64,000 nt of DNA from Rhizodiscina lignyota (taxonomy: Eukaryota), in assembly GCA_010015805.1 (NCBI GenBank), contig ML978124.1, forward strand, positions 1,798,001 to 1,862,000, in the 5' to 3' direction. The notes below the pieces were generated by a model, which saw only the letters and a program-made list of their open reading frames with translations, had not been told where the DNA came from and did no database searches. A program made the position numbers and the translations under genes. This document shows positions 33,624 to 61,918 of the stretch, in pieces; position 1 is the stretch's first letter, and each line of letters begins with the position of its first letter.

Positions 33624-33899
33624 TCAACATTGGCAGGCGACAAAGGTGTCGCAGTTCGGACTGATACATTCCTGTCAGTATCGTTGCTTCTCCTCACCAA
33701 CACATACTCGTGAGACTAACCATTGGAGCCGATTGCCGCACGAATCGAGACAACCGTTTTCGGCATAACATTGCTGACACTGGTTCTGATTGCATTGGCG
33801 AGGGATCAAAACGTTTAGCGCTTCGACGGGCGTTGCCGGTGCGGCGCTCGCGGAAAGCAAGATGGAGAAGAGGACGAATGCTGCTGCGGAGAAGCGCAT
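33624..33899 (-). CDS. Small secreted cysteine-rich peptide (71-aa precursor, 9 Cys); 2 exons
   Basis: Signal peptide MRFSAAAFVLFSILLSASA and a pro-region ending in IPR. Intron 33720-33661 (gttagt..ctgac..cag, 60 nt) gives QCNQNQCQQCYAENGCLDSCGNRLQCPNCDTFVACQC*. Confidence 0.8.
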
Positions 33900-34459
33900 A
33901 TTGAAGTTTCGCGAGTAAATTTTCAGATTTCAGAGGGAAATGTAGTGGGTGCCCGCATTGCAGACTCCTCCTTGACCTCACTTAGCTCACATTTATGTAG
34001 TAAACTGTCCGCACTGCGCCCACTTAATGCGCGATTTGACAACCATATTCTTACGATAGCAAACAATCTGATTCCGACAAGATGCCAAGACATGCTGTAC
34101 CCCGTCTTCTGTATGTCGTGGAAGTGGGTGTTTTCTGTCCCTTGCGCGACGCACGTGGGCCCTCGTGGTCGACATGTACAAGACTGAAGAAGGATCTGAC
34201 ATTGCCTACAGGCATGTGGTGGAAACAATAGAAGAGAGATTTAATAAGTCGAACTAATGCCGGAGCACACATTCAATTGGTTCCGGATCCTCCATGCCCT
34301 CAAGTGGAACTCGCATCGATGGACACTATTGATTGCTTCAAAAACCTGGCCCTCAGTCACACGACATAGAATCTATCGAACGTTCGGTTGCATCTGCGTT
34401 GTCGTGGTCCCCCGCATGACGTAGAGTTTACCACATACCCGGTTATCTGCGTAGACGGG

Positions 34460-36420
34460 TCGAGTATAGCGATACTATCCACGATATCCAACGCAGCTCA
34501 GTTATCGTCGCACTGAGCACAACTCAAGACTGGCCATGTCATCGATCCCGCCTCTTTGAGGAAGAATTTCCTCTAATTGAACCACGATGAAGCCATAGTT
34601 TGACCAATCGGATATCCCTCTTTCTGCGCAGGTACACGAATGATCGGGCATTAGTTGCAAGCTCGACTAAGGTTAAACACCTGAAACCGGACTGCACCTA
34701 AGCATCTATTAAACGCTAATCGGAATCTCTAAGGTCCGAAAGCACAGGTCATCGAATACCTATTATACGCTGATCGGAGCCCCTTGAACCTGGAGCCACA
34801 TAACCATCGAGTATCTATTGTACGTTAAGTGGAACCTTCGAAGGCCCAAGTCTCACAATGATCTGGCATCGGTTCTGCTCTCTTTGGAGTCTCTCAAGGT
34901 CAAAGTCTCAGAGTCCCTAAGCATCGATAGTGTGCCAAGTCGATTTAGTTATACTTAAAGCCGCGTAGCCGTCGAGCATTGATTACATATTAATACCAGT
35001 TCCTTCTAGTCAAAGTACCATAGCTTCAGAGCTTTAATAGCGGTTTGAGTACATTCAGAAGGTCCAAAAGTCACATACCTGTCAAGCGAGGATCGCGCGC
35101 CGTTCGGAATCCTTTAAACTTAAAAGTCTCATAGCTTCCGGGCATCCATACTGCAATATTAAGTTCGCCATTTCTTCGTCTCAAGCTCTGTTTGATGACA
35201 TCTTACAGATGATTACGCACGAACTTGCTAGTCGCCGCCAGTGTCAACAGCGCCTTTAAGGCGTCTCCCTCGGGCTCTAGCTCGCCACCTTCTGGGAGTC
35301 TCACGGAATTATCGGTCGCAAGACCTCTCTGGATCCACTGCCAGAGAGTGGAACGCAGTCTGCCAGATACTCGCGAGGAGTGTCTACTTCTAGCGCGACT
35401 AGTAAGCCCTCCCTTACCAGCTCGGTCGGAAGCGAATAGGGGTGGAATTGCTACGATGCAGTCGCTTGGCCACTCCGTATAAAGTCATCAATGTACTCAG
35501 TCGAGCCAAAAGGCGTACGGTTAGTGAGCATCGATTGAACACTAACCGGAATCTCCTGAACTCAGAGTTTGGTGGCTCTTGAGCGGCGATTAGCTTGCAA
35601 AGTCAATCTAACCACACCTAAAGTCGTACTGTTGCCGAGCATCGATTGTATATCAATCGGAATCTCTTAAACTTAAGGCTCTACGATAGTTGAGCTTGCG
35701 TTATGCCATGGCTTGCTGTTACTTAGTCAACCCCTACCGATTCTCGAGCATGAGCTGCGTGCCAAGTAGAATACCCACGCCGGTGAGTACGCTGAAATTC
35801 CAATATCAATGGTAAGGTGGGCAGAATGTAGAAAGGCAAGAGCTTAAGGTTATCCAGCTTCAAGTCAGCTGTTGCGGGAAGCTCTTCAAGGCTGAAGATA
35901 CGAGCTTTCGAGCGTTGATGCTACGTCGAATTGCATCTCTACTCCTGAAGTACGTGAAGTCCTTGCAGCATCTGGAAGAGAATTTGGTCCGTCTGTGCCT
36001 GCAAGATCTGCCGTGATGTTCTCTTATACTATGTCAATGGACAACAGACAATCGTACTGCGGTCTCAGTTTCTTGTTCACCGCCTAGCATTTGTAGTTCT
36101 TACATAATTCGAGCAGTGTTTGAGTGCAAAGGTTGCACAGCCGTCGAGCTTTGCGTTCGTTGCCCTCGGAATCTCTTCAACCCTGAACATATAAGCAATC
36201 CAGCATTGATGCTACGCCGAATAGCATTTCTATTCTCGCAAGTACACTAGAATCGCAGCTTCCAAGGTGAGGATAGCGATATATCTGAAAGCCAAAGTCT
36301 CATGGCTGTTGAGCATTGGGTCTGCTTCCGGCAGACTCTCAACTAGCTAAAATACACGACAGTTCTAGCAGCAATACTGTGTCAAATAGAATCTCCACTT
36401 CTGCGAGTATATTGAAAGTG
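34460..36420. repeat. Degenerate non-coding tandem array of ~55-bp units (at least 24 alignable units)
   Basis: Unit starts at 34644, 34698, 34752, 34807, 34862, 34917, 34972, 35027, 35082, 35138; then 35524, 35579, 35635, 35690, 35744, 35799, 35853, 35908, 35964; then 36144, 36199, 36254, 36309, 36364 (spacing 54-56). By-eye consensus: TCGAGCATCGATTGnACGYYAATCGGAATCTCTTRAACYYAAAGTCTCATAGCYR. Confidence 0.85.
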
Positions 36421-36742
36421 AAATTCTGGCCTTCCGATCCCGTCCCCTTGCAGACGTTCGGCCACATCTCTTCGAATGGGACGCCTGATCCTCCGGCACA
36501 TGAGCTCTGTAAAGGAAGCCCTGGCGATAGTACCACGGTGTCATAAGAACGATGAGTTCGGCGACCTCGTGGCGATGGGTGTTTGCATTATATCACAGGG
36601 ATTTCAAAGGGTTCACGGCACAGACAGAAAATGGCTCATTGTTTGCTTGACGTTCACATATCATTGAAATTTCCTATCTATAGGAAAGAAGAAGGCCACC
36701 CCCACCAATCCCCGCCCTCCACCACCATCACCACACCCAGAT

Positions 36743-38029
36743 TCATCGCCCATCGGCGATGAGAATCGCCACCGCCTTCCGAACGTTGGGACACTCCACC
36801 CCGCATCCAGCCGTCTGCATCTCCCCCAGGACCTGCCTCGCGATACTGACCGCCTCTCGCCTCGCTATGGGAGGGCCGTTCTCGGTGTGGATAATGAGAT
36901 GGACCCCAGCGATGCTGAGGGCGATCACGTATGCGATGGTGGCAGGCCAGATCCACTCCTTGTGGTACGTGGCCGGAGCGTTAAGCTCGACACCCCACAG
37001 GAGGTACTGGAGAGAGAAGCAGAGGCTGTACACGGTGAGGAGTGCCCAGTATCTGCGCATCCACCCCCGGACGGTGGTGGTGTCGTGCTTCATCACGACG
37101 CGCTCAAGGCGAGCGAGACCAAAGCAACCGGCGGTGATGCAGAGCGAGATGCCAATGTACATGGCGGAGAATGACGTCGCCGAGCTCCAGGCAATGTCGT
37201 ACCTATGGAGCCCGAGGCGGCCAGGGATCGAGACCTGCATGAAGAAATCGGCGTCTATGAAGTTGCCGGTTGCGATCAGTGCCTCGATCCCTGGATACCT
37301 CGGATCGCATGGGAGCCCGACGACGCAGCGCGTGTTTGTGATGCTGAAGAGGATGTCCACGAACACTACCCAGGCAATGACGAAAGGGATGCCGAAAAGG
37401 AGATTCATCACCCAGCTGCAGGTATAGAAGTTCTCGCGCTTCGCGCGGACGTGGATGAAGTAGGAGGCGATGTAGCAAGCCAGGAGGTTCATGCCGAGAG
37501 GGAGGAGGGCGGCCTTGAGGAGTTGGGACTTCCACTCCTTGGAGGCGTGGGCGACGAACGGTCCGAAAATGGCCAGGAAGATCATGCAGACCATGAGGGC
37601 GAAACTGCCAGCGATGTCACGGAAAGAGCTACACAAAGTCTAATAGACTGTGTTAATAATCCTCGTGCAAGAAGTCGACAAGACTCACCAGAAGCGTTCT
37701 GTCAGCCTACGATCAAGTGTGTGATGCGTATGGCACCAGTTTAGTGTGCCGGAACTCATGTACACTGCCACGATGTCTCGGTTGTTGGCCACTGGTTGCA
37801 TGTTCTGAATGTATACCGGCAAGTCCGGAGCATCCGTTGGCACGGGGACCGAGGGAGTGTTTCGATCGTAGAGCGTCTCGGTGGTAGGCATCACATCCAT
37901 CTCGATCGTCTCGTTGGCAGTAGACGGCCCGGCTCTTTCGAGATCGGTGTTGGGGGAGAACGTGGTCATCTCGATCGCCTCGTGGCCAGTAGAAGGACCC
38001 GCCCTTTCGGGGCCGGTGTTGGCGGACAT
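36743..38029 (-). CDS. Orphan multi-pass membrane protein (~408 aa, ~7 hydrophobic segments); 2 exons
   Basis: Intron 37688-37629 joins ORFs 37685..38029 and 36743..37636 in frame (RFC|SFRDIAG). The N-terminus carries a 23-aa duplication (NTGPERAGPSTGHEAIEM / NTDLERAGPSTANETIEM). Confidence 0.8.
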
Positions 38030-41666: not shown

Positions 41667-42208
41667 ATATCGTATGCTGGCGTGTCTTTGCGTATTTGTC
41701 ACTTCAGCGCAGTCAATATAAAGCAATACTCGAGTCACCAAGTTTGTCACCGTGTGCTGTCTACACAGTGAAGAAGCAAACGTAGAACTGAAGAGAACTT
41801 CTAGATTCAGTGAGACTAAACTTTGGAGCATTTCAGTACAATTGGAATTATTTCTGAAAATTTGGGAAATGATTTAGAAAATCTTGAACAATACTAAGCA
41901 GTTTTGATATTCCTACTCGATCTTTGACTAAAGAAAGCCCTCGTGCGAGTGATTGGAGAGCTGAAAGTTTCGGCCCAGTTTTTACCAATCCAAACGGAAT
42001 CTCCTCTTTGAGAACTCCGCTCCACATCTCCTCTCCTCCCAGAGAGGGAGAAACTCTGGGGCTGGGCGCTACGAACTGTATTTATATCATTCAACTCTCT
42101 CCGAATTCTTATCTTGAGTGCTTTCTTTCAATTTCGCTGTGTGATCCTTACCGTTTGTTTTTAGCCCGCGTCTCGTCGAACTTATTTCCAGCATTCGGTG
42201 AATCGAGC

Positions 42209-60624: not shown

Positions 60625-61918
60625 TCATTGTGGCCTCATGTTTCACTCTACTCAACTTGCTCTCATAGTTCATCGATTTGCATTTTTGGAGCGCTCGTGG
60701 CGTTGCAGAGGAGCAGCAAGAGCCGAGGATCAATCATCGATCAATGTCATTGGCTCTGAATAACTCTCACGAGGGAAAGACTGGACCTTTTCATTTTATG
60801 TTTCTCTGACTTTGGCAATCGCACAGCACGGCAGTTGGATGCTCCCCTTGCATGGAGCGAATGGGATCCGAGGAAGATTCCTTCTGAGTTGCAGCTTGTC
60901 TTCACTTTGAGGCAAAGGATAACGAGGCAGAGAAGATGATCGGCATACTGTATATAGCCTGCCTCGCCCCGCCTGTTGAAATCAATCATCGCCCAAGCTT
61001 GAAGCCAGCTCCTGCATACCGCCTCCGAGTCTTGGTGCATATCAACCCGGCTTCATGCTGGCTGTCGGCCGAGAGATCTGTGATCTGGAGCTCCATCAGG
61101 GTCCATGTTCCTCAGGAAATAGTTGAACGGAAAAACATCCGAGCAACGAGTCATGGCCAGTTGGCCTTTCGCTACAAGGCAGGTGAGAGCATACTGTATG
61201 CTCTAGACCGTGGCAAACAGGGATAGAAAACTTCGCTGCTCAAATTCTGTGTCTATCAAGGAGAATGTTCAATCTTGAGATTCGGTGTTTTGAAGGTGCG
61301 AGACAGTTCTGGGCACCCTCCAGGGTGCTCAGTCATCACCCATCACAGGGGTAGCTGCGGGGAGCTCCTATGTCAGGCCATCGTACCACCACCCGACATG
61401 GCCGCTGGGCATTTTCACGAGCTCTTCAGGTGAATGAGTCGTGGCGACCCTATCAATTGCAGAAATCATGCCACGGCCTTTACTCGTCTTTCAATCGCTC
61501 CACGGGCCGGTCGTGCAGATTCCCATATCAGGTCTAGGTCACCCCATAGCCACCCCTCTTTACGTCACGCCGTTCCCAGTATCACAGGCCGTTGCCGTTC
61601 TCGCTCCAGAGCTAGAGCTTGAACGGAGCTCCTTCCGCCAGCTCCCGTGCATAAGAGCTTCAAATTTCTCTGAACCCCTTGCTTTCTTCAAGTTCAAGCC
61701 TCAGTTCCTACTCAATCGCATCCAGCACACCAATTGAAGCTGCAAGACCTTGGGAACGCGCCAGTCTTGCATTTTCAAGACCAGAGAGAGCATAATTGAG
61801 CTCAACGATACGTTTCGAAGCCCAAGTCCCAAGAACAGCCAGCTTTGAGATTCGCTCTCTAGGCCTAACAGAGAGAATATCGATCCTCCAGAGCTATTGA
61901 AGCTGTGGTGCATCTCTC

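What the first reader, a model, noticed from the sequence alone, without database searches (positions are those of the whole stretch)
34460..36420. Hidden ~2 kb array of highly diverged 55-bp units with strictly conserved period
Seen: this is the most ORF-poor part of the window, and it is built from at least 24 alignable units spaced 54-56 nt apart (mostly exactly 55). Examples: 35524 gtgagcatcgattgaacactaaccggaatctcctgaactcagag, 35635 ccgagcatcgattgtatatcaatcggaatctcttaaacttaagg, 34698 ctaagcatctattaaacgctaatcggaatctctaaggtccgaaag. Short anchors (TCGAGCAT, GGAATCTC, AAAGTC) persist while the bases between them vary. Register also holds across the unalignable gap 35193-35523 (35138 + 7x55 = 35523). 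The period is not a multiple of 3 and stops are frequent in the frames I translated, so it is not a simple protein repeat. Inference: length conservation despite heavy sequence divergence is unusual for a neutral minisatellite. It could be a phased protein-binding or chromatin array, a repeat-structured ncRNA locus, or the relic of an element's internal repeats.
Basis: partly seen in the sequence, partly recalled or inferred. Interest (0 to 1): 0.75.

Follow-up and report, generated by a model that had tools for sequence, protein, structure and literature searches.

The report
Transposon-born 55-bp repeat array in fungus
The hidden 55-base repeat is real, but it is one of dozens of worn arrays scattered through this fungus's genome that most likely grew inside a small non-coding jumping element, so it is probably old mobile-DNA debris, with a small chance that the host has since put the evenly spaced motif to use.

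Summary
The 55-bp period is real (lag-55 z 8.6, shuffles at most 4.2; 21 units, 44% alike). It is not unique: a phased-motif search gave 51 matches against 3 for the control, and about 43 homologous arrays on 15 of 33 contigs were traced. They share a short core and lie between genes, 12 of 24 classifiable ones between converging genes. They belong with an abundant ~235-bp inverted-repeat, MITE-like element whose consensus is 15 + 4 x 55 bp. One intact copy has an exact 55-bp insertion, and two arrays sit between the element's two halves. The window's array has lost recognisable ends; its link rests on profile matches (p 0.006). Length conservation is near the element's own indel rate (1-2% against 2%). 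No hairpin covariation, codon phase or splice pattern was found. Unexplained: the core decays more slowly than the rest of the unit. The scan earlier noted a 55-bp array and a ~232-bp MITE elsewhere in this genome, separately. Verdict: new member of a known kind.

The parts
34624..35172 (+). Array block 1: ten contiguous 55-bp units (spacings 54-56), core motif GAGCAT on the + strand
35173..35503 (.). Unalignable 331-bp gap (6 x 55 + 1); keeps the register, but its slots score like background
35504..35942 (+). Array block 2: seven units by the window profile plus one at 35779 by the family profile
35943..36123 (.). Second gap; register shifts by 16 bases across it
36124..36398 (+). Array block 3: four units plus a weak one at 36234; 36168-36235 is 79% identical to 35877-35944, a later local duplication out of register
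34569..34623 (+). Possible further, very worn leading unit
   Evidence: about 2 bits with the family profile; first link of the chain
61084..61336 (+). Stand-alone relic of the ~235-bp inverted-repeat element in the same window (not attached to the array)
   Evidence: E 5e-25; this copy was also among those the model was built from
41822..41918 (+). Fragment of the same element
   Evidence: E 0.008
33675..33899 (-). Left neighbour (context): first exon of a probable small secreted cysteine-rich protein; the array lies 725 bp upstream of it
   Evidence: read from the translation; no Pfam family
36743..38029 (-). Right neighbour (context): orphan membrane-type protein P0001; the array lies 345 bp downstream of its stop

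Best explanation
The array is an old internal expansion of a non-autonomous, inverted-repeat (MITE-like) DNA transposon family whose body is itself built of 55-bp units. The common short form is 15 + 4 x 55 = 235 bp between 27-bp terminal inverted repeats. Slippage or unequal exchange added units in steps of 55, about 110 or about 165 bp and gave long forms of up to about 25 units. Transposition, with local hopping, scattered short and long forms; insertions survived mostly in gaps behind gene ends; the long forms then decayed and many, this one included, lost recognisable ends. Shown: the family, the element's ends and 55-bp register, arrays inside element halves, and profile homology of the window's unit. 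Inferred: slippage or unequal exchange, mobilisation in trans by an unidentified transposase, purging from promoters, and that the shared core was once a repeated protein-binding site of the element.
For: Family: 51 matches against 3 for the control pattern; 19 of 29 other loci passed a leave-one-locus-out chain test (scores 33-218, null at most 17.6); a second pattern gave 24 against 0 and five new loci, all five arrays; in 769 kb a motif-free scan gave 30 peaks at period 55 and 0-2 at each of nine other periods. Element: consensus of 28 copies is 235 bp, ends 26 of 27 complementary (read), and tiles as 15 + 4 x 55; the family unit fits it three times in 55-bp register (19.0 bits, 1000 shuffles at most 16.0); copy L108:618-908 keeps both ends and has a clean 55-bp insertion, and L136 spans about 55 bp more than the model. 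Arrays inside elements: L154 and L156 have the 5' half before and the 3' half after a 6-7-unit array (E 9e-21 and 3e-8; 3e-17 and 3e-8); 6 of 37 arrays have element sequence within 300 bp, all in the array's orientation. Window link: the window-only profile tiles on the element at the same phase as arrays with no element beside them (p 0.006 and 0.001) and scores 7 of 9 element-associated arrays above block shuffles (p 0.005-0.03). Indel ratio 1-2% against 2.1% in element copies. Precedents: PMC3879986 (abstract), PMC4079207 and PMC8268682 (passages).
Against: The element model finds no head or tail at the window's array, and 31 of 37 arrays have none within 300 bp at E below 0.01. A plain gapped alignment of the window consensus to the element consensus is not significant (p 0.6). 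Only 4 of 10 other single arrays or subsets of 9 or more units tile significantly on their own (L026, L062, L070, L076; L026 at another phase). The head runs into the units in exact register in L104 and L066 (read) but not in L154, L156 or L113. No target-site duplication was established and no transposase partner was found. Core columns are not better kept among element copies (0.50 against 0.49, p 0.35), yet they are in arrays.
Confidence: 0.72

Rival explanations
1. Element-derived, but since recruited (or always kept) by the host: the arrays are phased docking platforms for a DNA-binding protein, one site every 55 bp, in gaps behind gene ends, acting in termination, insulation, cohesin or condensin loading, or replication initiation.
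For: Per-column identity: core 0.53 within and 0.49 between arrays, variable columns 0.36 and 0.27 (32 arrays). With the search-anchored units left out, the core is better kept in 16 of 17 arrays, for each of the four bases, and column conservation correlates between arrays (mean rho 0.115, 2000 rotations at most 0.06). It holds in pairs picked as close on non-core columns (0.68 against 0.55, 35 pairs). 12 of 24 arrays are between converging genes against 17% of random positions (p 2e-4), 1 of 24 between diverging genes against 27%. No family array was seen at period 54 or 56. Exact-55 share 0.75 is above the 0.60 simulated at a 4% indel ratio.
Against: Arrays were found with the window's best-kept columns, so core conservation is partly ascertained; the one long array recovered without the motif (C7, 23 units) has a changed core (family score -22 to +5 bits per unit). 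Element copies show the same placement trend (4 converging, 4 tandem, 0 diverging, 8 unclassified, 1 in a coding frame; partly the same loci). Unit number (2-25), orientation and neighbours vary freely; arrays cluster and 0 were found in 160 kb of unselected sequence. Gene calls behind the context test are rough hexamer predictions; 12 of 36 arrays could not be classed.
Confidence: 0.13
2. An independent dispersed minisatellite (spread by extrachromosomal circles or gene conversion) that is older than the element; the MITE arose later by capturing four units between inverted repeats. The window's array would then never have been inside an element.
For: Arrays are more diverged (42% within, 34% between) than element copies (52%); most arrays have no element ends; no other shared flanks were found among the first 20 arrays (best E 5e-4 over 37 bp). 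Stand-alone and element-bound forms of one repeat coexist in oyster (PMC8268682, passages).
Against: Arrays bracketed by both element halves, exact 55-bp gains in intact copies and tandem runs of about 105-175 bp of element interior (L071, L149, L150) show that expansion inside the element happens and suffices.
Confidence: 0.11
3. A transcribed or coding feature: structured RNA units, an intron plus micro-exon cassette, or a decayed 165-nt protein repeat.
For: The family consensus has a loose dyad across columns 20-55; one window unit reads like an intron (sequence, 35524-35565); lag 165 is the second peak.
Against: No covariation, no consensus fold, no Rfam match; GT is in at most 48% of units at any column on either strand; matches at lags 55-165 show no codon phase; 22-36 stops per frame; no strand bias to neighbouring genes (hand tally).
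Confidence: 0.04

Closest known systems
Tandem-repeat-containing MITEs, such as DTC84 of the clam Donax trunculus (PMC3879986, abstract read)
   Same: Non-autonomous element with inverted-repeat flanks around a variable number of internal core repeats; each repeat has a palindrome; repeat variants differ by position.
   Different: Here the unit is 55 bp, the units fill the whole element, arrays reach about 25 units against up to five, divergence is far deeper, no microsatellite segment or target-site duplication was shown, and the host is a fungus.
Tetris foldback element and its TIR-220 arrays in Drosophila virilis (PMC4079207, passages read)
   Same: Internal tandem repeats of an inverted-repeat element that also expand into kb-size satellite-like arrays.
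   Different: Tetris repeats lie in both arms, are about 94% alike in long arrays, have 8-10-bp target-site duplications and accumulate in heterochromatin. Here all units face one way, are about 42% alike and lie between genes.
Helitron/Helentron central repeats: oyster dispersed satellites and DINE-1/HINE (PMC8268682, PMC4067079, passages read)
   Same: Short arrays scattered through gene-rich DNA, found both with element ends (often on one side only) and stand-alone; no target-site duplication.
   Different: This element's inverted repeats are 27 bp and appear terminal, not 12-15-bp subterminal with a separate 3' stem-loop and T-rich target; those Helentron marks were not tested here.
Fungal MITEs such as mimp of Fusarium oxysporum (name taken from the scan's notes and recalled; no paper on it read here)
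   Same: Short non-coding inverted-repeat elements of about 200-250 bp, abundant between genes.
   Different: No internal 55-bp unit structure is known to me for mimp (recalled); superfamily and partner of this element are unassigned.

Membership tests
MITE / non-autonomous TIR DNA transposon (the ~235-bp element) | Terminal inverted repeats | tested here: met
   Consensus ends 26 of 27 complementary (read); 12 of 28 copies keep at least 13 of 19 bases at both ends
MITE / non-autonomous TIR DNA transposon (the ~235-bp element) | Short, uniform, non-coding | tested here: met
   10 of 12 two-ended copies are 231-248 bp, the others 217 and 288; 1 of 17 copies overlapped a predicted coding frame; no transposase search was run on it
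MITE / non-autonomous TIR DNA transposon (the ~235-bp element) | High copy number, dispersed | tested here: met
   6 hits at 5 loci in 160 kb of unselected sequence, roughly 1000 if extrapolated; 26 matches on 14 contigs to one query, a lower bound
MITE / non-autonomous TIR DNA transposon (the ~235-bp element) | Target-site duplication | tested here: inconclusive
   12 copies: flank identity 0.42 at 5 bp and 0.36 at 6 bp (p 0.04 each, uncorrected over nine lengths); the palindromic end CTCGAG blurs the boundary
MITE / non-autonomous TIR DNA transposon (the ~235-bp element) | Autonomous partner with the same ends; empty orthologous sites | not testable with these tools
   Genome not available as a file, no relatives held
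This element family (the window's array as a member) | Unit homologous to the element's interior | tested here: met
   Profile tiling p 0.006 at the family phase; 7 of 9 element-associated arrays scored by the window-only profile; a gapped consensus alignment was not significant (p 0.6)
This element family (the window's array as a member) | Element ends flank the window's array | tested here: not met
   No head or tail hit in the flanks or gaps; short end-like matches at 34180 and 36269 (10.5 and 13.3 bits, window 99.99th percentile 9.8) have no matching partner. The array is therefore filed as a derived, end-less relic, not as an intact element
Minisatellite / dispersed satellite | Head-to-tail units of 7-100 bp (size class as in PMC4522978, passages) | tested here: met
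Minisatellite / dispersed satellite | Units more alike within than between arrays | tested here: met
   42% against 34% over 20 arrays; dimer structure in L113 (74% at lag 2, 45% at lag 1)
Helentron-associated elements (HINE, DINE-1) | Subterminal inverted repeats, 3' stem-loop, T-rich target | not tested
   Flanks printed are not T-rich by eye; no formal test
Structured non-coding RNA | Conserved pairing with compensatory changes | tested here: not met
Structured non-coding RNA | Transcription | not testable with these tools
   no RNA holder listed
RIP-degraded repeat | Excess C-to-T transitions, TpA enrichment, CpA loss | tested here: not met
   145 units: TpA/ApT 0.79, (CpA+TpG)/(ApC+GpT) 1.26, transitions/transversions 0.76, GC 47%; the index thresholds are recalled

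The most novel reading that the evidence does not exclude
A fungal transposon seeded dozens of phased arrays that the host now keeps as docking platforms, one 13-bp site every 55 bp, in gaps between converging genes, where they could define replication origins, cohesin or condensin stations or transcription barriers. I know of no sequence-defined element of this kind in filamentous ascomycetes (recalled; the listing of search showed none). The slower decay of the core in 16 of 17 arrays, the single period across about 43 arrays and the convergent placement fit this.
Probability: 0.13. Interest if true: 0.75.

Novelty: new member of a known kind. Interest (0 to 1): 0.33.

Why it matters
On the likely reading this is a clear fungal case of a transposon that makes and scatters minisatellites, a link documented mainly in animals in the papers I saw; six searches (listings only, open-licence library) showed no title or abstract on such a family in fungi. 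It also shows a layer of old repeats that Tandem Repeats Finder and BLAST miss, and it probably joins two separate notes of this scan. If the host uses the phased core, the arrays would give a testable, sequence-defined chromosome element in filamentous fungi.

Tried and rejected
Single-locus minisatellite (my first reading, after searches found only this place): overturned by phased patterns. BLAST of the array or of three units finds no other copy because units are too diverged. The 63-bp match right of the array leads to a coding exon on C24 with no 55-bp period in 30 kb. Intron plus micro-exon, protein repeat and hairpin RNA: rejected. RIP as the cause of divergence: no signature. Inverted array pairs as the two arms of a large transposon (L066, L068): the frames between them have no Pfam family and do not read like a transposase; not pursued. 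Period-54 hits (28 matches) are mostly a few repeats that read as in-frame protein repeats; of four followed up none gave a family chain of 24 bits at that place. Period-56 hits (5): three followed up, none an array. Ten of 29 loci failed the chain test; one of them (C7) proved to be an array with a changed core. Consensus-type patterns found nothing in metagenome contigs (2 scans) or viral contigs; exact matching makes these weak. No RNA holder listed. A literature search on replication origins in filamentous fungi listed nothing relevant; one search gave satellite precedents. Papers: PMC3879986 abstract and outline; PMC4079207, PMC8268682, PMC4067079, PMC4522978 and PMC7082219 passages only; no supplements opened, and repeat libraries in supplements could already hold this element.

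Full report
Setting. The window is G000:C4:1798001-1862000 of a 33.4-Mb, 33-contig assembly. The gene right of the array matches a protein that a source labels Rhizodiscina lignyota, a Dothideomycete of the family Rhizodiscinaceae (PMC7082219, passages). The array fills the gap between the stop of that orphan gene (36743, minus strand) and the start of a probable small secreted protein gene (33899, minus strand; read).

Autocorrelation peaks at lags 55, 165 and 110 (z 8.6, 6.1, 5.5; highest z in 300 shuffles 4.2). Twenty-one units lie between 34624 and 36398, align without gaps and are 44% alike on average; 11 of 16 adjacent spacings are 55. Three more weak units appear with the family profile. 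The register survives the first gap to within one base, though the gap itself scores as background, and shifts by 16 at the second.

It is one of many. BLAST and consensus patterns first found only this place. A pattern asking for the five best-kept bases four times at exact 55-bp spacing, with up to three mismatches, gave 51 matches against 3 for the reversed control. Of the 29 other loci, 19 passed a leave-one-locus-out chain test (null at most 17.6). A second pattern gave 24 against 0 and five new loci, all arrays. Flank scans added more, to 37 arrays with 267 units; a 23-unit array with a changed core and five beside or near element copies bring the count to about 43 on 15 contigs, a lower bound. 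A motif-free scan of 769 kb, enriched for these loci, gave 30 peaks at period 55 (27 on known arrays) and 0-2 at each of nine other periods. At period 56 the pattern gave 5 matches; at 54 it gave 28, mostly in a few repeats that read as in-frame protein repeats. None was found in 160 kb of unselected sequence, while several lie within a few kb of other arrays, so they cluster. None of 36 overlaps a predicted coding frame; of 24 that could be classed, 12 lie between converging genes, 11 between tandem genes and 1 between diverging genes, against 17%, 56% and 27% of random positions (rough gene calls). Orientation to the nearest gene end is about even (13 to 11, hand tally), which points to a DNA-level feature.

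Anatomy of the unit. All arrays but one share a core, TCGAGCATCGATT in consensus (columns 21-33), and a weaker block near the unit's end; the rest is array-specific. Identity is 42% within and 34% between arrays. The consensus has a loose dyad, but arms do not covary; there is no fold, Rfam match, codon phase or splice pattern and no RIP signature.

Where the units come from. An all-against-all comparison of fetched DNA showed that some arrays share a 5' flank. The flank is the first half of an abundant element: 235 bp in consensus from 28 copies, with 27-bp inverted ends that begin and end in CTCGAG, at 5 loci in 160 kb of unselected sequence. Its consensus divides into 15 bp plus four 55-bp units, and the family unit fits it three times in register (19.0 bits; 1000 shuffles at most 16.0). 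One copy with both ends carries an exact 55-bp insertion; other loci hold tandem runs of about 105-175 bp of the interior. Three loci picked up by the unit part of a query all carry element sequence in the same orientation: two have the 5' half before and the 3' half after a 6-7-unit array, one has the 3' half. Six of 37 earlier arrays have element sequence within 300 bp, all co-oriented. For the window itself, the unit profile tiles on the element at the family's phase (p 0.006) and scores 7 of 9 element-associated arrays above shuffles.

Results against this. The window's array has no recognisable element end, nor do 31 of 37 arrays. A gapped consensus alignment of window unit and element is not significant (p 0.6). 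The head joins the units in exact register in two of five cases. A target-site duplication is not established, and no transposase partner could be sought.

Is the fixed length odd? Leaving out search-anchored intervals, 129 of 173 spacings are 55 (75%), with shortening commoner than lengthening (36 to 8). Simulated decay gives 80% at an indel-to-substitution ratio of 1%, 70% at 2% and 60% at 4%. Near-full-length element copies give 2.1% (biased low by that choice); a second repeat family gives about 6% (47 gap openings in 800 mismatches over 22 non-independent pairs, hand tally). The period is thus kept about as well as, or a few times better than, neutral DNA here; common descent from a 55-bp unit explains why all arrays share it.

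What stays unexplained. With anchored units removed, the core is better kept than the rest in 16 of 17 arrays, at every unit distance and in close pairs, but not among element copies (p 0.35). Part of this is ascertainment, since arrays were sought with the window's best columns and the motif-free C7 array has another core. The rest may reflect an old binding site kept while long elements were still mobile (inference) or host use today (the novel case, about 0.13).

Known kinds. Elements with internal tandem repeats that vary in number and grow into satellite-like arrays are described for the clam MITE DTC84 (PMC3879986, abstract), Drosophila Tetris (PMC4079207, passages) and oyster Helitrons, where element-bound and stand-alone arrays coexist (PMC8268682, passages). 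The element here meets the MITE marks of inverted ends, size and copy number; the duplication of the target site is open. The window's array works like such an internal expansion and is filed as an end-less relic, not an intact element. Six searches listed no fungal case by title or abstract.

Earlier notes. The scan had recorded a 55-bp array (e1-7566109) and a ~232-bp MITE (e1-7578723) elsewhere in this genome. The first sent me looking for other arrays. Their places are not given and look-ups by sequence found nothing, so that they are these families is likely but untested.

Verdict: real, a new member of a known kind, most likely transposon debris; interest 0.33.

Noticed in passing
window 36443-36504: 63 bp, 90% identical to part of a coding exon of an orphan gene at G000:C24:123556-123618; looks like a captured gene fragment just right of the array.
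   Followed up: partly
window 33675-33899 (-): Probable small secreted cysteine-rich protein with a signal-peptide-like start and no Pfam family.
   Followed up: no
window 36743-38029 (-): 408-aa orphan membrane-type protein with a 69-bp tandem duplication near its start; only itself found among 1731 candidates.
   Followed up: partly
L078:3567-4826 (G000:C7, about 1833.7-1834.9 kb): 23-unit 55-bp array with a changed core and a tail block one base closer to the core, yet still period 55; its units resemble the element's second unit.
   Followed up: partly
L113:95-424, L154, L156: A younger-looking subfamily; in L113 two unit types alternate (74% identity at two units' distance, 45% at one), so expansion went on in 110-bp steps.
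   Followed up: partly
L071:324-1262, L149, L150, L155: Tandem runs of about 105-175 bp of the element's interior.
   Followed up: no
L112:4854-5065, L129:4164-4375, L098, L066:7116-7300, L085, L031, L123: A second dispersed non-coding family of about 200-220 bp, 8 copies seen at 69-80% identity, not matched by the element model.
   Followed up: no
L027, L070, L106; L026, L105: Three ubiquitin C-terminal hydrolase genes and two peptidase S28 genes end next to arrays; noticed after the fact and may be chance.
   Followed up: no
L113:2260-2960 (G000:C24, about 203.8-204.4 kb) and L114: 54-bp repeats that read as in-frame protein repeats carry a motif like the family core; the C24 one lies about 2 kb from a 55-bp array. 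Probably picked by the search pattern, but a coding derivative is not excluded.
   Followed up: partly
L066:923-4130, L068:1521-4165: Oppositely oriented arrays bracket about 2 kb, in L066 an orphan 399-codon frame and a cluster of element copies.
   Followed up: partly
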